Of a stretch of DNA of 64,000 nucleotides, positions 55,492 to 62,041 are shown piece by piece. Every line of letters starts with the position of its first letter. Positions within the stretch are counted from its first letter, which is position 1. The notes below the pieces were generated by a model, which had not been told where the DNA came from, did no database searches, and was given only the letters and a program-made list of their open reading frames with translations. The stretch is from a phage. Location: the NCBI GenBank assembly GCA_033759635.1, contig GCA_033759635.1_4528.1; one strand, given 5' to 3'. The position numbers were made by a program, and so were the translations under genes.

Positions 55492-56127
55492 ATGAAAACT
55501 ACTCCTATTACTATCGCTATTGACGCAATCATAAAACAAGCTTCTTCTTTGGCCGCTATGGCCAAAGTAATTAGTCAAAACCCTGCTCGTTATAATGCTA
55601 TTCTAGAAACTCTTCGACGCCCAGGACTGAGTAATTATGAAAGTCGTGTAATTATTACAGGTGTCGGTAAGAATGCTAATATCGCAACTAAAGCTTCCGA
55701 GACTTTTGCTTCATTGGGTATTCCTAGCATGTATTTGAACACCGGGCATTATTCTCATGGTGACGCAGGATTTATTGCACCTAATGATGTATTAGTTCAC
55801 ATCAGTCGTTCTGGTAAGACTGAAGAAATGATAGGTGTTGCTAAACATCTTCGTATGATTCGTCCTCAGGTTAAACAGATTCTGTTACATTGTAACCCTG
55901 ACATTCCACAAGAATACGAAGCTCTTTTTGATTATACGTTCTGTACCGGTATCGCGGTAGAAGTTGACGAGAACTCTTTAGCTCCGACAATGTCCACTAC
56001 ATTGTTGTTAGCGCTTATCGATACGTTCGCTATCAACCTTTCGTCTGAACGTGGATTTACCTCTAATGATTTCCTTAAGTTCCATCCAGGCGGTGCACTA
56101 GGTGCCATGTTACGAGGCGAGCAATGA
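55492..56127 (+). CDS. SIS-domain sugar-phosphate isomerase (KdsD/KpsF-like arabinose-5-phosphate isomerase core, no CBS domains)
   Basis: VIITGVGKNANIATKASETFASLGIPSMYLNTGHYSHGDAGFIAPNDVLVHISRSGKTEEM and C-terminal LAPTMSTT...FHPGGALGAMLRG align by eye with the KdsD SIS domain. Confidence 0.7.
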   Translation: MKTTPITIAIDAIIKQASSLAAMAKVISQNPARYNAILETLRRPGLSNYESRVIITGVGKNANIATKASETFASLGIPSMYLNTGHYSHGDAGFIAPNDVLVHISRSGKTEEMIGVAKHLRMIRPQVKQILLHCNPDIPQEYEALFDYTFCTGIAVEVDENSLAPTMSTTLLLALIDTFAINLSSERGFTSNDFLKFHPGGALGAMLRGEQ

Positions 56128-56267
56128 AAGCAATAACAATAGGACTTTTACTATTGATGCTTGTCATGACTATCTACTGGAGCTTAACGGCTCCAGTAAT
56201 GATTCCGACTCTTATAATCGGATGGATTATGATTGGACTACAAGCAAAGTATGAATGCTTTAACTAG
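56124..56267 (+). CDS. small hydrophobic membrane protein (47 aa; possibly Imm-like)
   Basis: MKAITIGLLLLMLVMTIYWSLTAPVMIPTLIIGWIMIGL...; ATGA-coupled to the SIS gene; sits where T4 imm lies. Confidence 0.35.
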   Translation: MKAITIGLLLLMLVMTIYWSLTAPVMIPTLIIGWIMIGLQAKYECFN

Positions 56268-56308
56268 AATAGTGTACAATACTCCTACTTACCAATGAGG
56301 ACCACAAC

Positions 56309-57997
56309 ATGAAAAAAGCTGTTATTCTTGGTGCTGGATTAGCAACTCGTTTATATCCAATTACTCACCATATTCCTAAGGTGCTTGTTAACTATAAACA
56401 AGACACTATTCTGAGCAATTTGTATACAATTTATTCTGACCTTGGCGCAGATGAAATTATTGTAGTAGTTCATTCAAAATTTGCTGAAACTGTTCGAGCT
56501 TATTGTGAGCAAGAAGGGTTCAATGTGACTATTCGTACAGTTGATGAAGCGTATGGTTCTGCTTATGCTCTTGCTAAATTACACAAAGATTTAGACGGCC
56601 ATAACGTAATTGTTAACTGGTGTGATATTATTCCTGATTTTGGTTCATGGTCTTGGAATGTTAACGCAATCTATGTTAAGGGTGATGAATGTCGATATAA
56701 TTTCGATGGTGAAAATATCACTAACGTAGGTTCAACTGGTGGTAATGTTGTAGGAATTTATCAGTTCAAAGACTGGGAATTCTATATGGGTTCTACTGAT
56801 GAGGAAATTCATGAATACTGCAAAGGACGTGATTTCGTAGAATTCCTTTACAGCGGCGCATTCAATAAATCAGAGCTTATGAATATCATCGACCTTGGTG
56901 ATATGCCTAAACTTGAAAAAGCTCATGAAGTTCGTGAACTTAATCGTAGTTTTAATGCAGTTGAAATTGGTGAAGAAACGGTAACAAAGATTGCTTTAAC
57001 AGAACAGGGCGTTGCACTTCAAAAAGATGAAGTCAATTGGTATAAGAAAGTTAAATCAGATTCAGTTCCACGGATTGTAAGTTATCATCCTGGCGGCCAC
57101 TTTATTATGGAACGCATTAAAGGTAAGCCGGCATTTGAATATATTAAATCCAAATCAAGTCTTGCTCGTCCACAAATTGTTGATGCAATTTTAGATGCAC
57201 TGAAATTCAGCACAGACATGTATTTTGTAAGTCCTGAAACTGTTCGTCGTGATTTCACTAAAGAATTCTATACGAAAGTTATTGATCGTTGTGAAAGTAT
57301 TCAACCATTGATTGATTCATTTGGTAAAATCACACATGTGAACTACACTAAGATTGGACGTCTGAAGCCAATGCTGAAGCAAGCTTTAGAACATCTTATT
57401 CGTTATCATACCCGTTCTCAGGGACAGTACTCTGTTATTCATGGTGACCCGAACTTCAGTAATACTATGATTACTGATAACGGCGAAGTCAAGTTTATCG
57501 ACCCTCGTGGATATTTTGGCGAAACCAAGATTTACGGGCCAAAATTGTACGATGAAGCTAAAGTGCTTTATGCTGTTTCAGGTTATGATGAATTCAATGC
57601 TAATCCGACCTGGGGACAGTTTACTATTGATGAAACAACTTGTAATGTGACTATTAACATCAATCCATTAATTTACAAATATGGAAAGATGAGTTCGTTT
57701 AACGAGTATCATCATTTGGCGGTGGCAATTATCTGGATTGCATTAGGTGGTTATTTCAAGAATAATCCACTTAAAGCGGTAGCCGCATATTATAAAGGTA
57801 TGGAACTTCTGACTAAGCAATTACGCAACATGGGCCGTGTACTTCAAGACGGCTCTATTAGTTATGACGTAGCAGGACCTGTAACGGCTACTCTGATTAC
57901 AAAAAATCCTGGTAAATGGGTACTAACTGATAAAGAAACTGGTGTTTCCTATCGTCCAATCGGTGGCGATATCACTCATCAATGGGAACGAATCTAA
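56309..57997 (+). CDS. bifunctional sugar-1-phosphate nucleotidyltransferase / sugar kinase (protein-kinase-like fold)
   Basis: N-terminus ILGAGLATRLYPITHHIPKVLV matches the RmlA/GlmU-type G-x-G-x-R...K motif; C-terminal half has the Brenner motif HGDPNFSN and the IDPRG metal-binding motif of APH/choline-kinase-type kinases; 562 aa. Confidence 0.65.
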   Translation: MKKAVILGAGLATRLYPITHHIPKVLVNYKQDTILSNLYTIYSDLGADEIIVVVHSKFAETVRAYCEQEGFNVTIRTVDEAYGSAYALAKLHKDLDGHNVIVNWCDIIPDFGSWSWNVNAIYVKGDECRYNFDGENITNVGSTGGNVVGIYQFKDWEFYMGSTDEEIHEYCKGRDFVEFLYSGAFNKSELMNIIDLGDMPKLEKAHEVRELNRSFNAVEIGEETVTKIALTEQGVALQKDEVNWYKKVKSDSVPRIVSYHPGGHFIMERIKGKPAFEYIKSKSSLARPQIVDAILDALKFSTDMYFVSPETVRRDFTKEFYTKVIDRCESIQPLIDSFGKITHVNYTKIGRLKPMLKQALEHLIRYHTRSQGQYSVIHGDPNFSNTMITDNGEVKFIDPRGYFGETKIYGPKLYDEAKVLYAVSGYDEFNANPTWGQFTIDETTCNVTININPLIYKYGKMSSFNEYHHLAVAIIWIALGGYFKNNPLKAVAAYYKGMELLTKQLRNMGRVLQDGSISYDVAGPVTATLITKNPGKWVLTDKETGVSYRPIGGDITHQWERI

Positions 57998-58383
57998 TGC
58001 ACCGTGTAGAAAACATGCTTAATCTTTGTTTTGATGTCGATGATTGTATAACAGAGTGGAATAACAATCGTGATTACGTGAACTTCAAACCAGACGTCGA
58101 AATGGTGTCTGCCATTAATGCCCTGTATGATGCAGGGCATACCATAACGCTTTACACTGCTCGTGGTATGAAGTCAGTAGGTCCTGGTCGTATAGCAATT
58201 GACATTCTCCCAAGTCTGATTCAGAACTTGGCAAACATTGGCTTGAAGTACCATAATTTGCTAACACATAAACCAGTATATGATTGGATTATCGACGACA
58301 AAGCTATGCGTCCTGACGAATTCAAAGCTCTTATGAATAAAGGCGAATTCGAAACATTTAAATCATATAAACCGAATCTATAA
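57997..58383 (+). CDS. HAD-superfamily phosphatase
   Basis: ORF 57982..58383 trimmed to the TAATG-coupled Met; HAD motif I FDVDDCIT, motif II LYTARG, motif IV IIDDKA. Confidence 0.6.
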   Translation: MHRVENMLNLCFDVDDCITEWNNNRDYVNFKPDVEMVSAINALYDAGHTITLYTARGMKSVGPGRIAIDILPSLIQNLANIGLKYHNLLTHKPVYDWIIDDKAMRPDEFKALMNKGEFETFKSYKPNL

Positions 58384-58437: not shown

Positions 58438-59598
58438 ATGAATACTTTTAAAATCGGAACGAATTTTGATTTAGCTCTTCTTGATAAAATCGTAGAGCTC
58501 AATAAAACTTATCCTAATAGCTTGATAAACGAAGTATACGGCTCTACAAGAGAAATGGCTTTTGTAGCAGCCAGACCTGATTTTAGGCTTCCTGACGTTG
58601 ACAAAAAGATGTTAGAAGATTACGTTAAACGTTGTAACGAATTAGGTATTTGCTTTAACTATACACTCAACACGATAAATCCTGGTTCAAAAAGAGAACT
58701 AGTCGAGTGGAAGAAGAAAGCTATTCAGGATTATGTTCAGTATCTTTGGTCAATAGGCGTATGGCGTATTACTATCGCTAACCCTGTTGTTATGGAAATT
58801 GTTCGTGAAGTCAATAAAGACATTGAGATTGAAGTTTCAACAATTCTACATGTCGATGCTGTAACTCAAATAAAATACTTACATGACCAATACAATATCA
58901 AAAAGGTCTGCTGTGGAATTCATAAGAACCGTTCAGTTTCTTTCCTGAAGCGTGCAGCAGAGTTTTGCAATAAGAACAATATAATATTTGAAGTTCTTGT
59001 AAATGAGTTCTGTTCTAATGCTGGTAAAGGGTATACAACACATTGTAGTTATCGTGACTCTTGCTATATTTTCCATAGTACTGATGTTACAGCTGATGAT
59101 GCTAAATCCTTAAATGGATATCCAATGCAACACTGCATTAAAGCTCGTGATACAGACCCATTTAACTGGTTGAGAACTCGTTTTGTTCGTCCTCAAGATT
59201 TGAAACTTTATAATGATATTGGTATCACTCAATTCAAAGTTTCAGGACGTACAGGTAGCACAGACTACATTTTGAAAGTTCTTGAAGCATACGCTTCTGA
59301 AAAGTTTGAAGGTAATTTGTTAGAACTGTGGAAGCCTTTAGAGACTATTTTCACTCTTGAAAATGAAACTGAGTTTTCACATACAGTAAATATTGAAACC
59401 TCTTTGTTAGATGGCTTTTTAGAAAAAAGGTGGTTCAGACATCCAGATTTTGATTGTGCTAATGAAATCTGTGGATCAACGTGTACATATTGTGAAAGAT
59501 ATTATAAACGTCAATTATCTAAAAACGGGTTAGCAGAAAACTCTATATCTATTATTGATATAACTAACTCTGATGACGCTCTGAGGTACCCGGAATGA
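58438..59598 (+). CDS. Cys-rich protein, possibly peptidase-U32-family-like Fe-S enzyme
   Basis: 386 aa; clusters EFCSNAGKGYTTHCSYRDSCY and CANEICGSTCTYCERYY; the U32 resemblance is by eye only. Confidence 0.3.
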   Translation: MNTFKIGTNFDLALLDKIVELNKTYPNSLINEVYGSTREMAFVAARPDFRLPDVDKKMLEDYVKRCNELGICFNYTLNTINPGSKRELVEWKKKAIQDYVQYLWSIGVWRITIANPVVMEIVREVNKDIEIEVSTILHVDAVTQIKYLHDQYNIKKVCCGIHKNRSVSFLKRAAEFCNKNNIIFEVLVNEFCSNAGKGYTTHCSYRDSCYIFHSTDVTADDAKSLNGYPMQHCIKARDTDPFNWLRTRFVRPQDLKLYNDIGITQFKVSGRTGSTDYILKVLEAYASEKFEGNLLELWKPLETIFTLENETEFSHTVNIETSLLDGFLEKRWFRHPDFDCANEICGSTCTYCERYYKRQLSKNGLAENSISIIDITNSDDALRYPE

Positions 59599-59834
59599 TT
59601 TCTAGAAAAACTTTTAATCACCAACTTAATGAAGAGATTTTGACTATTAAACTGAACACTAACGAACAAATTCTTAAAAAGGCCCTTATGGGCCTGTTTG
59701 AAACTAAAGCGGCTAAAGCGATTAAAGAACCTGTTCAACTAGAATACTATGCCGACGCATTCCTTCATAGTGTCCTTGGAAGTATTGATGCCGAAGCTCT
59801 ACGTTATATCAACATCGCTAAGAAATTCAAATAA
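59595..59834 (+). CDS. hypothetical protein
   Basis: 79-aa ORF, ATGA-coupled. Confidence 0.45.
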   Translation: MISRKTFNHQLNEEILTIKLNTNEQILKKALMGLFETKAAKAIKEPVQLEYYADAFLHSVLGSIDAEALRYINIAKKFK

Positions 59835-59875: not shown

Positions 59876-60592
59876 ATGGGAAAACATAACACAATGAAAT
59901 ATATTAAAGCCGCAGATTTTCAATCCGCATTTAAAGCTGTCAATCGTGAAATTTTAGAAAACCCGGAATTCGTAACTGATTCTCGTATTGGACGTTGTAA
60001 TGAAATTGGGTCTATGACAGTAGTTGTTGACACTCCATCATCATTCAAAATGACCGACCCACGTATTAATCGCATCTCTTATGAATATGCTGAAGATTTC
60101 TGGAAGTTTATGATTTCTGGTGGTACTGATGCAGAAGAAGCATTTAAGGCATATCCTAATGTCGCTAAATTTATTTCTAAACCAAAATCAGATGTTTTGC
60201 CTGCAAACTTCAACACTTTCTACGGTCCTCGCATTGCGGCCCAATTACCAGCTCTTCTAAAAGAACTTAAAGAGAAACCTAACTCTCGAAGAGTTGTGTT
60301 CCAAATTCTAGAAAGTTCTGATCAGGCTTTGCTTGATTCGGACGAAACACTTGAATATCCATGTACTGACTCGGTAACTTATTATATTCGTGATGGTAAG
60401 CTTTATACTCACTGTCATATGCGTTCCCAGAACTGTGCTGTTGTTATGCAGTTGGATTTTTATCTCCAAGGAAAATTACTTCATTATATCGCTAACGAAT
60501 GTGGTGTAGAAGTTGGTGATTATACTCATACCATGGTAAGTGCCCATGTGTTTGAACGTGATTTTGATTATGTTAAAGGATTCCTTGACTAA
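59876..60592 (+). CDS. 42: thymidylate-synthase-fold pyrimidine hydroxymethylase (gene 42-like dCMP hydroxymethylase)
   Basis: 238 aa; RRVVFQIL and EYPCTDSVTYY...HCHMRSQN resemble the TS/dCMP-hydroxymethylase active-site region; sits between 43 and uvsX like T4 gene 42; lacks the TS-specific GPVYG motif. Confidence 0.55.
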   Translation: MGKHNTMKYIKAADFQSAFKAVNREILENPEFVTDSRIGRCNEIGSMTVVVDTPSSFKMTDPRINRISYEYAEDFWKFMISGGTDAEEAFKAYPNVAKFISKPKSDVLPANFNTFYGPRIAAQLPALLKELKEKPNSRRVVFQILESSDQALLDSDETLEYPCTDSVTYYIRDGKLYTHCHMRSQNCAVVMQLDFYLQGKLLHYIANECGVEVGDYTHTMVSAHVFERDFDYVKGFLD

Positions 60593-61492: not shown

Positions 61493-62041
61493 ATGGCTAA
61501 AATTATTTTAGTAGATGGCCCGGATAATGCCGGTAAAACAACTTTCATTAATGACATAATGGAAATTAGTGAAAGATATGTAAAGATTGATTTCCCTAAA
61601 CGAACAGTTGATGGACGTTTCGATGTTAAGTCTCGAAATGAAGTTGGTTGTTTCGAAACGATGTTGAATTATTTAGACCCTACTAAGATTTATCTGTTAG
61701 ACCGTGGATATATTAGTAACTGGGTTTATGGACGTATTCGACAAGATGCGGACTCGGTTCTTGACGTTTATGAACAGGACTATGTTCGTCTTTGCCAAAA
61801 CCATGATGTGTTCACAATTATTTTAACACGTAACGAAATGACTGAAAGTTTTGAAGACGACCTTATTACTTTGTCTTCATTCGGTTTTAATACAGTCATT
61901 TCACATTTTGAAGAGTTTGCAATTCATAACAAAATCCAAACATATCAATTACTTAATCATGATGGTGCTAACAAAGTTATAGGATTTAATGCAAGCGAAC
62001 GTAATGGTTTGATTACAGAAATCATCAAATGGGCTCGTTAA
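61493..62041 (+). CDS. thymidylate-kinase-like P-loop nucleotide kinase
   Basis: P-loop VDGPDNAGKTT and DRGY lid-like motif; 182 aa. Confidence 0.5.
   Translation: MAKIILVDGPDNAGKTTFINDIMEISERYVKIDFPKRTVDGRFDVKSRNEVGCFETMLNYLDPTKIYLLDRGYISNWVYGRIRQDADSVLDVYEQDYVRLCQNHDVFTIILTRNEMTESFEDDLITLSSFGFNTVISHFEEFAIHNKIQTYQLLNHDGANKVIGFNASERNGLITEIIKWAR

What the first reader, a model, noticed from the sequence alone, without database searches (positions are those of the whole stretch)
56309..57997. Single polypeptide fusing an RmlA-type nucleotidyltransferase to an APH/choline-kinase-type kinase
The N-terminal about 230 aa carry the GxGxR(L)YPIT sugar-1-P nucleotidyltransferase signature; the C-terminal about 330 aa carry HGDxxxxN and IDxxG motifs of protein-kinase-like small-molecule kinases (the fold of anomeric sugar kinases such as NahK/AmgK). 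A kinase-NTase fusion would channel a sugar directly to its NDP-activated form; this domain order in a phage is unusual.
Basis: partly seen in the sequence, partly recalled or inferred. Interest (0 to 1): 0.75.

Follow-up and report, generated by a model that had tools for sequence, protein, structure and literature searches.

The report
Known phage arabinose-activating bifunctional enzyme (AfhE)
The gene is real and does fuse a sugar-nucleotide-forming domain to a small-molecule kinase, but it is the already published enzyme that RB69-like phages use to make the activated arabinose they attach to their DNA, so it is correct but not new.

Summary
Window 56309-57997 (+) is one 562-aa ORF with an N-terminal sugar-1-phosphate nucleotidyltransferase (about residues 1-205) and a C-terminal choline-kinase/APH-fold kinase (about 210-510), plus a 52-aa tail found only in the phage clade. 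The catalytic residues of both domains are invariant in 48 homologues down to 25% identity. AlphaFold models are confident (pLDDT 93).

The window is an RB69-like T-even phage. The gene is RB69 ORF53_52c / gp52:53. It is 98.6% identical (554/562) to the single homologue in phage HY126. [quoted passage not shown]

The reported pathway runs from ribulose-5-P through the SIS isomerase, this kinase domain, the downstream HAD phosphatase and this NTase domain to UDP-arabinofuranose, the donor for arabinosyl-5-hydroxycytosine DNA.

Handover is not direct, because a separate phosphatase acts between the two domains. The architecture is not unusual in phages, because 364 phage records hold a near-full-length match.

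Novelty: already known; interest is low. Side leads are four-domain single-chain versions in giant-virus-like contigs and the neighbouring U32 protein.

The parts
56309..57997 (+). The gene: 562-aa bifunctional NTase-kinase. It is the orthologue of RB69 ORF53_52c / gp52:53 and, by inference, of HY126 AfhE (XAN60479.1).
   Evidence: ORF. It is 554/562 identical to the only homologue in HY126. PHROG 4098 matches end to end, E 6e-293. The full-length model has pLDDT 93.3 and pTM 0.89.
56309..56923 (+). N-terminal sugar-1-phosphate nucleotidyltransferase domain (residues 1 to about 205). Signature G8-A-G10-L-A-T-R14 (56330-56350); K24 and D106 are invariant.
   Evidence: Pfam PF00483 at 9.7e-10, above cut-off. 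PDB sequence hit to LicC 1jyk at 1.9e-5. Foldseek matches to MurU 4y7v (TM 0.73 on target), LicC 1jyl (0.68), RmlA and HddC over about 220-250 columns. Invariant G10, R14, K24, W104, D106.
56936..57838 (+). C-terminal choline-kinase/APH-fold (eukaryotic-like) small-molecule kinase domain (residues about 210-510). Includes K227, E241, the catalytic loop H378-G-D380-x4-N385 (57440-57463) and the Mg-binding I397-D398-P-R-G (57497-57511).
57839..57994 (+). C-terminal 52-residue tail (residues 511-562) with short beta-strands and lower confidence. Present only in the phage clade of homologues. Function unknown.
   Evidence: pLDDT 77-87. Covered in 26 of the 48 aligned sequences and absent from the 22 more distant, shorter sequences in the alignment (about 490-560 aa).
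56256..56280 (+). T4 middle-promoter-like motif (MotA box TGCTTTA, 12 nt, then TACAAT), ending 29 nt before the ATG.
   Evidence: The pattern TGCTTYA-N11-13-TANNNT occurs 13 times in the window against 1.8 expected, and 11 of the 13 are on the + strand. It is a consensus match only. The sigma-70 scan was not above chance.
56297..56301 (+). Shine-Dalgarno GAGGA, 7 nt upstream of the start codon.
   Evidence: Read directly from the sequence.
55492..56127 (+). Pathway partner 1: short SIS-domain sugar-phosphate isomerase (orthologue of RB69 gp55). Predicted reaction: ribulose-5-P to D-arabinose-5-P.
   Evidence: Pfam SIS at 9.6e-10. NCBIfam KpsF/GutQ at 9e-32 and KdsD at 4e-30, both below their full-length cut-offs because the CBS domains are missing. 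PHROG 5670. 208/211 identical to HY126. Role as proposed in PMC13326640.
56124..56267 (+). Small hydrophobic 47-aa ORF between the isomerase and the target. Its ATG overlaps the isomerase stop (ATGA). Function unknown.
   Evidence: Sequence. Annotated in HY126 as XAN60480.1; translation from the HY126 locus.
57997..58383 (+). Pathway partner 2: 128-aa minimal HAD phosphatase (orthologue of RB69 gp51 and HY126 AfhF). Its start overlaps the target's stop codon (TAATG), so the two are probably translationally coupled. Reported reaction: arabinofuranose-1,5-bisphosphate to arabinofuranose-1-phosphate.
   Evidence: Overlap seen in the sequence. NCBIfam TIGR01689 'capsule biosynthesis phosphatase' at 4e-13, below cut-off. 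128/128 identical to HY126. Role from PMC13326640 citing He et al..
59876..60592 (+). Thymidylate-synthase homologue (orthologue of RB69 gp48), reported to be a 5-hydroxy-dCMP synthase. It makes the acceptor base.
   Evidence: Pfam Thymidylat_synt at 2.4e-15. RB69 gp48 activity reported in PMC13326640.
60592..61491 (+). 299-aa protein (orthologue of RB69 gp46:47), proposed first DNA arabinosyltransferase and so the user of the UDP-arabinose made by the target.
   Evidence: No Pfam or NCBIfam hit. PHROG 3891. Assignment from PMC13326640.

Best explanation
The gene encodes the AfhE-type bifunctional enzyme of the arabinosyl-5-hydroxycytosine DNA-modification pathway of RB69-like (Mosigvirus) phages.

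Proposed pathway:
1. The upstream SIS isomerase converts host ribulose-5-phosphate to D-arabinose-5-phosphate.
2. The C-terminal choline-kinase/APH-fold domain of this protein uses ATP to phosphorylate the anomeric C1-OH, giving arabinofuranose-1,5-bisphosphate.
3. The downstream, translationally coupled mini-HAD phosphatase removes the 5-phosphate, giving arabinofuranose-1-phosphate.
4. The N-terminal RmlA/MurU-type domain condenses that product with UTP to give UDP-D-arabinofuranose plus pyrophosphate.
5. Phage glycosyltransferases then transfer arabinose onto 5-hydroxycytosine in DNA, which protects the DNA from host nucleases.

Shown here: the two-domain architecture, the folds, the conserved catalytic residues, 98.6% identity to the HY126 protein, the synteny, and the recurrent SIS/HAD partnership.
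Taken from the literature, and only at second hand: the actual substrates and the order of steps.
Inferred: that HY126 XAN60479.1 is the protein named AfhE.
For: - Identity with the characterised system: 554/562 identical to the single homologue in phage HY126. The whole cluster is collinear and 98-100% identical: SIS, 47-aa ORF, target, HAD, U32, ThyA-like, GT, TMK-like.
[quoted passage not shown] It also states that AfhF is the Mg-dependent phosphatase acting on Araf-1,5-P2, and that RB69 gp52:53 shares the architecture.
- RB69: the region was shown to be one 561-aa protein giving one band of about 64 kDa.
- Thanatos: loss of the 55%-identical TH1_060 nearly abolishes propagation of phage Thanatos.
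- UDP-Araf is used by the DLP3 arabinosyltransferases in vitro.
- Rosetta-stone support found here: proteins of about 900 aa with HAD, SIS, NTase and kinase in one chain. SIS next to NTase-kinase next to a mini-HAD in an archaeal-like contig. HAD_2 adjacent to the homologue in another contig.
- Several of the closer kinase fold matches phosphorylate a sugar at C1: maltokinase, 5-methylthioribose kinase and NahK.
Against: - The primary biochemical paper (He et al., Nat Chem Biol 2026) is not in the held library. The substrates and step order therefore rest on one secondary description. Table 1 of that same paper still lists the alternative order, with the phosphatase acting first and the kinase acting on free arabinose.
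- The mapping of the name AfhE to XAN60479.1 is my inference from its being the only homologue in HY126.
- The kinase domain fails every curated sequence threshold, and fold similarity cannot identify the substrate.
- Purified Thanatos TH1_060 made no NDP-xylose from xylose-1-P with any NTP. That is uninformative about arabinofuranose-1-P but is not positive evidence.
- Nothing was assayed for this particular allele, which has 8 substitutions relative to HY126.
Confidence: 0.86

Rival explanations
1. Same enzyme and same end product, but a salvage-type order as the first reader imagined (AmgK/MurU-like). The HAD phosphatase first makes free D-arabinose from arabinose-5-P. The kinase domain then phosphorylates free arabinose at C1, and its product passes directly to the NTase domain of the same chain.
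For: Table 1 of PMC13326640 lists exactly this: 'dephosphorylates Araf5p to Ara' and 'Phosphorylates Ara to Araf1p'. Known anomeric kinases of this fold (NahK, maltokinase, MTR kinase) act on unphosphorylated sugars. A fusion would make most sense for consecutive steps.
Against: The text of the same paper, updated with He et al.'s biochemistry, says that AfhE phosphorylates Araf5P to Araf1,5P and that AfhF then dephosphorylates the bisphosphate. The well-established ADP-heptose pathway uses the same isomerase, kinase, phosphatase, NTase order, with a bifunctional kinase/NTase that skips a step (GmhA/HldE/GmhB; established knowledge).
Confidence: 0.08
2. A LicC-LicA-type fusion that phosphorylates choline, ethanolamine or another small alcohol and makes the CDP-alcohol, unrelated to DNA arabinosylation.
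Against: Identities are only 10-20%, at fold level. The gene sits between an arabinose-5-P-type isomerase and a sugar-phosphate-type HAD phosphatase, inside the hydroxycytosine/arabinosyltransferase cluster. SIS and HAD domains are fused to homologues. The reported activity is on arabinose phosphates.
Confidence: 0.01
3. The protein is itself the glycosyltransferase that puts the pentose on cytosine. This follows the original GT-A CDD hit and the suggestion made for Thanatos TH1_060.
For: CDD assigned the N-terminus to the GT-A superfamily. The Thanatos authors still call TH1_060 'a good candidate as a glycosyltransferase', and it is essential.
Against: NTases and GT-A enzymes share a Rossmann-like fold, but the G-x-G-x-x-x-R...K signature and all top structural matches are sugar-1-P nucleotidyltransferases. 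TH1_060 did not transfer xylose to DNA or nucleotides. Separate GT-B arabinosyltransferases are encoded nearby, and DLP3 homologues were shown to act on DNA with UDP-Araf.
Confidence: 0.02

Closest known systems
AfhE of Escherichia phage HY126 (He et al., Nat Chem Biol 2026, as described in PMC13326640); RB69 ORF53_52c / gp52:53; DLP3 gp82; Thanatos TH1_060
   Same: Same protein family and, for HY126 and RB69, essentially the same protein (98.6% identity to HY126). Same NTase-then-kinase order, the same flanking SIS isomerase and HAD phosphatase, and the same arabosyl-modification cluster between DNA polymerase and UvsX (arabinosyl-5-hydroxycytosine).
   Different: Eight amino-acid substitutions relative to HY126 (S182G, G183S, M304T, T368N, G392C, T448S, I455V, G523E, written window residue then HY126 residue). 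None is at an invariant position.
ADP-heptose pathway: GmhA (SIS isomerase), HldE (bifunctional kinase/adenylyltransferase), GmhB (HAD phosphatase)
   Same: Identical pathway logic: ketose-phosphate isomerase, then anomeric kinase giving a 1,n-bisphosphate, then a HAD phosphatase removing the distal phosphate, then an NTase. The kinase and NTase are fused in one protein although they catalyse non-consecutive steps.
   Different: HldE's domains are not homologous to those here: a PfkB/ribokinase-type kinase and a cytidylyltransferase-type adenylyltransferase, in kinase-then-NTase order. The sugar is a heptose, not a pentofuranose. No PfkB or HldE model matched. The resemblance is convergent.
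AmgK / MurU (MurNAc salvage) and NahK
   Different: They are separate proteins, act on free amino sugars, and their steps are consecutive with no phosphatase in between. The NCBIfam MurU equivalog scores 25 bits against a cut-off of 250, so the protein is not a member.
LicC / LicA (and LicC-LicA fusions)
   Different: The substrate is choline and the nucleotide is CTP. There are no SIS or HAD partners, and identity is under 20%.
Bifunctional L-fucokinase/GDP-fucose pyrophosphorylase (FKP) of Bacteroides (own knowledge)
   Same: One chain with an N-terminal pyrophosphorylase and a C-terminal anomeric sugar kinase.
   Different: The FKP kinase is GHMP-type, not APH/ChoK-type. It is a free-sugar salvage enzyme with consecutive steps.
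5-Methylthioribose kinase (MtnK)
   Different: Stand-alone enzyme of methionine salvage. The 5-substituent is methylthio, not phosphate, and the sugar is ribose, not arabinose.

Membership tests
AfhE-type bifunctional arabinose-5-P kinase / UDP-arabinose pyrophosphorylase (phage arabinosyl-5-hydroxycytosine pathway) | Single chain with an N-terminal sugar-1-P NTase and a C-terminal ChoK/APH-fold kinase | tested here: met
AfhE-type bifunctional arabinose-5-P kinase / UDP-arabinose pyrophosphorylase (phage arabinosyl-5-hydroxycytosine pathway) | Close sequence relationship to the characterised HY126 protein and to RB69 gp52:53 | tested here: met
   554/562 identical to the only HY126 homologue. 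96% identical to the 230-member cluster P0001. That this HY126 gene is the one named AfhE is my inference.
AfhE-type bifunctional arabinose-5-P kinase / UDP-arabinose pyrophosphorylase (phage arabinosyl-5-hydroxycytosine pathway) | Genomic association with a SIS arabinose-5-P isomerase, a HAD phosphatase, a ThyA-like 5-hydroxy-dCMP synthase and a glycosyltransferase | tested here: met
AfhE-type bifunctional arabinose-5-P kinase / UDP-arabinose pyrophosphorylase (phage arabinosyl-5-hydroxycytosine pathway) | Enzymatic activities: Ara5P plus ATP gives Ara-1,5-P2; Ara1P plus UTP gives UDP-Araf | not testable with these tools
   Known only through the secondary description in PMC13326640. The primary paper is not held.
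Sugar-1-phosphate nucleotidyltransferase (Pfam PF00483, RmlA/GalU/MurU/LicC superfamily) | Profile match above the curated cut-off | tested here: met
   38.9 bits against 21.2, but only residues 3-99 align by sequence
Sugar-1-phosphate nucleotidyltransferase (Pfam PF00483, RmlA/GalU/MurU/LicC superfamily) | N-terminal G-x-G-x-(x-x)-R ... K nucleotide-binding signature and a conserved acidic residue in the sugar/metal site | tested here: met
   G10, R14, K24 and D106 are invariant in 48 sequences. The second Gly of the canonical GxGxR is Ala12 here.
Sugar-1-phosphate nucleotidyltransferase (Pfam PF00483, RmlA/GalU/MurU/LicC superfamily) | Complete NTase fold | tested here: met
   220-250 aligned columns, TM 0.67-0.73 on target length to MurU and LicC
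Specific equivalogs RmlA, MurU, GalU, GlmU, HddC (NCBIfam) | Score above the equivalog cut-off | tested here: not met
   All are far below cut-off, for example MurU 25 against 250, rmlA_long 26 against 320, HddC 22 against 300
APH / choline-kinase family (Pfam PF01636 and relatives) | Profile match above the curated cut-off | tested here: not met
   APH 16.8 against 23.2; Fructosamin_kin 16.8 against 22.4. No kinase hit in the PDB sequence search.
APH / choline-kinase family (Pfam PF01636 and relatives) | Bilobal kinase fold, closer to small-molecule kinases than to protein kinases | tested here: met
APH / choline-kinase family (Pfam PF01636 and relatives) | Catalytic residues: beta3 Lys, alphaC Glu, HGDxxxxN catalytic loop, (I/D)DxxG metal-binding Asp | tested here: met
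   K227, E241, H378-G-D380...N385 and D398 are invariant. Assigning each residue to its structural role is by analogy and was not checked on coordinates.
HldE (bifunctional heptose kinase/adenylyltransferase) | PfkB-type kinase domain plus cytidylyltransferase-type domain | tested here: not met
   No such family among the Pfam or NCBIfam hits. The protein works like HldE but is not a member.

The most novel reading that the evidence does not exclude
The NTase-kinase module, with its SIS isomerase and HAD phosphatase partners, may not be a phage DNA-modification speciality. It may be a widely distributed route from ribulose-5-P to an NDP-pentofuranose.

The evidence does not exclude this:
- All four activities are fused in single polypeptides of about 900-955 aa (order HAD, SIS, NTase, kinase). 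These lie on AT-rich, ORFan-dense contigs carrying XRN, a Ulp1/I7-type protease and an SNF2 helicase (giant-virus-like), and one is in a Ceratiomyxa slime-mould transcriptome.
- A SIS, NTase-kinase, mini-HAD operon lies on an archaeal-like contig.

If these proteins make NDP-D-arabinofuranose, nucleotide-activated D-Araf would feed glycans of eukaryotic viruses, protists or archaea. The four-domain proteins would also be ready-made one-enzyme catalysts for making UDP-Araf. I could not check whether He et al. or Mahler et al. already report this.
Probability: 0.35. Interest if true: 0.5.

Novelty: already known. Interest (0 to 1): 0.15.

Why it matters
The enzyme supplies the activated sugar for arabosyl-type hypermodification: arabinosyl-5-hydroxycytosine, a DNA modification that lets RB69-like phages escape restriction enzymes and some other defences while exposing them to others. 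These phages are common in phage-therapy collections.

That significance is already established in the literature, and the first-stage reader rediscovered it from sequence alone.
- an independent structural and conservation check on a new allele;
- a clear statement that the pathway logic is a convergent copy of the HldE/GmhA/GmhB heptose pathway;
- the observation that the four activities are fused into one chain outside phages;
- a side hypothesis about the neighbouring U32 protein.

Tried and rejected
- Sequence-only identification of the kinase half failed. Pfam, NCBIfam and the PDB sequence search gave only sub-threshold hits, so I went to structure prediction.
- Foldseek with the full-length model returned only NTase matches in the top 50. 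The kinase had to be modelled separately.
- No solved AfhE structure turned up in the PDB copy, by sequence or by fold.
- The primary papers (He et al. 2026; Mahler et al. 2025) are not held. Searches for AfhE/HY126 and for citing papers found only secondary mentions.
- The sigma-70 promoter and terminator scans of the cluster were not above chance: 22 promoter-like sites found against 26.9 expected. I rejected them as evidence. The T4 middle-promoter pattern is enriched instead.
- BLASTP between the phage HAD and the archaeal-like 127-aa neighbour was not significant, and neither was the phage 299-aa GT against the 312-aa neighbour. Only motif-level resemblance supports the HAD call.
- I rejected the glycosyltransferase and LicC/LicA readings; see the rival explanations.
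- I could not inspect model coordinates. Whether the two active sites face each other, and which residues bind the 5-phosphate, remain untested.
Full report
**1. The observation**

Window 56309-57997 (+) is a single 562-aa ORF with an ATG start. A GAGGA ribosome-binding site lies 7 nt upstream. The ORF ends in TAA, and that stop overlaps the ATG of the next gene (TAATG).

- G8-A-G-L-A-T-R14-LYPIT near the N-terminus. This is a variant of GxGxR in which the second Gly is Ala.
- HGDPNFSN at residues 378-385.
- IDPRG at residues 397-401.

The ORF behaves as a coding gene. Against its closest characterised relative, 33 of 43 nucleotide differences fall at third codon positions, and 32 differing codons are synonymous against 8 non-synonymous.

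**2. The two domains**

The N-terminal domain passes the Pfam NTP_transferase cut-off (38.9 bits against 21.2), although only residues 3-99 align by sequence. Its best PDB sequence hit is LicC (1jyk, E 1.9e-5). NCBIfam gives only sub-threshold matches to archaeal GlmU-type, AglF, RmlA, MurU and HddC models.

The kinase half does not reach any curated sequence threshold (APH 16.8 against 23.2). I therefore built a 48-sequence alignment from 150 homologues and predicted structures. The full-length model has pLDDT 93.3 and pTM 0.89. The model of residues 208-562 alone has pLDDT 93.4 and pTM 0.90.

Fold comparisons:
- The N-terminal domain aligns over about 220-250 columns with MurU, LicC, RmlA and HddC, with TM up to 0.73 on target length.
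- True protein kinases score no higher than 10.1. Foldseek agrees, at E about 1e-6.

Residues expected for catalysis in both domains are invariant down to 25% identity: G10, R14, K24, D106, K227, E241, H378, G379, D380, N385, D398.

A 52-residue C-terminal tail (511-562) is present in 26 of the 48 aligned sequences, the closer phage-type relatives, and absent from the shorter, more distant ones.

**3. Where the window comes from, and what is already published**

The flanking genes are the T4-type sliding clamp, clamp loader, RegA, DNA polymerase and UvsX. The 6.7-kb cluster is 97% identical to many Mosigvirus (RB69-like) phages, and 152 records cover at least 80% of it.

Thomas et al. 2018 showed that RB69 ORF053c and ORF052c are one gene, split in GenBank by a sequencing error. 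It encodes a 561-aa, 63.9-kDa protein. They proposed that it acts with the SIS protein ORF055c in UDP-arabinose synthesis.

The 2026 NAR paper on DLP3 and RB69 (PMC13326640) makes these points:
- The modification is arabinosylated 5-hydroxycytosine.
- The N-terminal domain of gp52:53 is assigned as an NDP-sugar pyrophosphorylase and the C-terminal domain as a kinase.
- Citing He et al. [quoted passage not shown]
- AfhF is the Mg-dependent HAD phosphatase that converts Araf-1,5-P2 to Araf-1-P.

HY126 is in the phage collection. Its only homologue (XAN60479.1) is 554/562 identical to the window protein. The whole cluster is collinear and 98-100% identical at protein level.

The 55%-identical Thanatos TH1_060 is essential for phage propagation.

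The finding is therefore a correct rediscovery of a known, characterised enzyme.

**4. Mechanism**

The most likely pathway has four steps:
1. Ribulose-5-P is converted to D-arabinose-5-P by the SIS isomerase (55492-56127).
2. The kinase domain uses ATP to make arabinofuranose-1,5-bisphosphate.
3. The 128-aa HAD phosphatase (57997-58383) makes arabinofuranose-1-P.
4. The NTase domain uses UTP to make UDP-Araf, the donor for the arabinosyltransferases.

What I showed here is the architecture, the folds, the conserved catalytic residues, orthology and synteny. The substrates and the order of steps come from the literature at second hand, because the primary paper is not held.

The two fused domains catalyse non-consecutive steps.

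The logic duplicates the ADP-heptose pathway, in which GmhA is the isomerase, HldE the bifunctional kinase/NTase and GmhB the HAD phosphatase. The domains are unrelated, so this is a convergent solution (established knowledge; no HldE-type families matched).

The alternative order, with the phosphatase first and the kinase acting on free arabinose, still appears in Table 1 of the NAR paper. I keep it as the main rival explanation.

**5. Independent support for the four-enzyme unit**

- Homologues exist as single chains of about 900-955 aa with HAD, SIS, NTase and kinase in that order (P0081, P0083, P0090, P0094). P0086 (892 aa) is similar, but Pfam found no SIS domain in it.
- Other fusions occur: SIS-NTase-kinase (P0091, 761 aa, annotated as GutQ like the Butyrivibrio fusion noted by Thomas et al., which had the SIS domain at its C-terminus), and NTase-kinase-cupin (P0104).
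- On an archaeal-like contig, a 33%-identical short SIS gene precedes a 509-aa NTase-kinase. A 127-aa protein with mini-HAD motifs follows.
- On another contig, a HAD_2 gene is adjacent to the homologue.

**6. Prevalence in phages**

tblastn finds the protein in 374 phage records, 364 of them with at least 80% coverage. Hosts include Escherichia, Acinetobacter, Klebsiella, Vibrio, Shigella, Serratia, Yersinia, Pseudomonas and others. The architecture is therefore common in T4-like phages, not unusual.

PHROGs still labels the family (phrog_4098) 'unknown function'. Most GenBank records call it hypothetical, or wrongly 'GlmU'.

**7. Expression signals**

A T4 middle-promoter-like motif (TGCTTTA, 12 nt, TACAAT) ends 29 nt before the start codon. 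The pattern occurs 13 times in the window against 1.8 expected. Sigma-70 and terminator scans were at chance level.

**8. Verdict**

- Observation: confirmed.
- Interpretation: largely right, but not novel, and wrong on direct channelling and on rarity.
- Novelty: already known.
- Interest: 0.15.

The leads worth passing on are the four-domain fusions in giant-virus-like or protist sequences, and the very highly conserved U32-family neighbour. These are listed under the things noticed in passing.

Noticed in passing
window 58438-59598 (+): A U32 'peptidase'-family protein (386 aa; Pfam PF01136 at 7e-11; weak UbiU hit; C-terminal CxxxxCxxxCxxC) lies between the HAD phosphatase and the 5-hydroxy-dCMP synthase. 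From my own knowledge, U32 proteins include RlhA (5-hydroxycytidine in 23S rRNA), TrhP (5-hydroxyuridine in tRNA) and UbiU/UbiV, all O2-independent hydroxylases, whereas the phage ThyA-type hydroxylase uses O2. My hypothesis is that this protein is an anaerobic route to 5-hydroxycytosine. It occurs in 222 phage records. Every host genus listed is a facultative anaerobe (Enterobacterales, Shewanella); 12 records in 7 unlisted genera could not be checked. All copies are at least 82% identical, which is much more conserved than AfhE in the same genomes (Klebsiella 86% against 44%). It is not seen in the Acinetobacter phages that carry AfhE. Against the idea: about 40 Escherichia phages have AfhE but no U32, and the pattern is confounded by clade. 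PMC13326640 only calls it a 'sugar or heterocycle reductase' and does not mention U32, RlhA or TrhP.
   Followed up: partly
L003 8001-10760; L005 5545-8283; L002 1574-4282; proteins P0081, P0083, P0086, P0087, P0090, P0094, P0095: Single polypeptides of about 900-955 aa carry HAD, SIS, NTase and kinase in one chain, so all four steps of the phage pathway are fused. Their contigs are AT-rich (L003 21% GC, L002 23% GC) and ORFan-dense. They carry an XRN exonuclease, NFACT-R, a Ulp1/poxvirus-I7-like protease and an SNF2 helicase, which looks like giant viruses. P0083 comes from a Ceratiomyxa fruticulosa (slime mould) transcriptome.
   Followed up: partly
L007 7397-10835: An archaeal-like contig (diphthamide synthase, ribosomal L16/L10e, translin) carries the same gene order as the phage. 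The order is a short SIS isomerase (33% identical, E 9e-31), a 509-aa NTase-kinase, a 127-aa protein with mini-HAD motifs (IDVDGV / IIITAR / NDKKP), and a 312-aa protein of unknown function.
   Followed up: partly
window 56124-56267 (+): A 47-aa strongly hydrophobic ORF (MKAITIGLLLLMLVMTIYWSLTAPVMIPTLIIGWIMIGLQAKYECFN) is wedged between the isomerase and the NTase-kinase. Its start overlaps the isomerase stop (ATGA). It is annotated in HY126 as a hypothetical protein. A small membrane protein inside a cytosolic sugar-nucleotide cluster is unexplained.
   Followed up: no
window 56256-56280 and 12 other sites: T4 MotA-box-type middle-promoter motifs (TGCTTYA, 11-13 nt, TANNNT) are enriched: 13 found against 1.8 expected, and 11 of the 13 are on the + strand. 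One lies directly upstream of the target gene and one upstream of UvsX-proximal genes (61431).
   Followed up: partly
window 57839-57994 (residues 511-562 of the target): The C-terminal 52-residue tail, with short beta-strands, is present only in the T4-like-phage clade of homologues and absent from the more distant, shorter sequences in the alignment. Its pLDDT is lower (77-87). It might dock a partner such as the phosphatase, but this was not tested.
   Followed up: no
window 59876-60592, 61493-62041 and public annotations of the cluster: Public records mis-annotate much of this cluster. The 5-hydroxy-dCMP synthase is labelled 'dCMP hydroxymethylase' or 'thymidylate synthase'. The target is labelled 'GlmU', 'bifunctional protein' or 'hypothetical'. 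The HAD phosphatase falls in a PHROG named 'phosphoheptose isomerase'. The U32 protein is labelled 'collagenase-like protease'.
   Followed up: no
window 59595-59834 (+): A conserved 79-aa ORF (phrog_8601, unknown function) overlaps the end of the U32 gene by 4 nt. In HY126 only a shorter 40-aa version is annotated at the equivalent place (locus L001 8287-8409).
   Followed up: no
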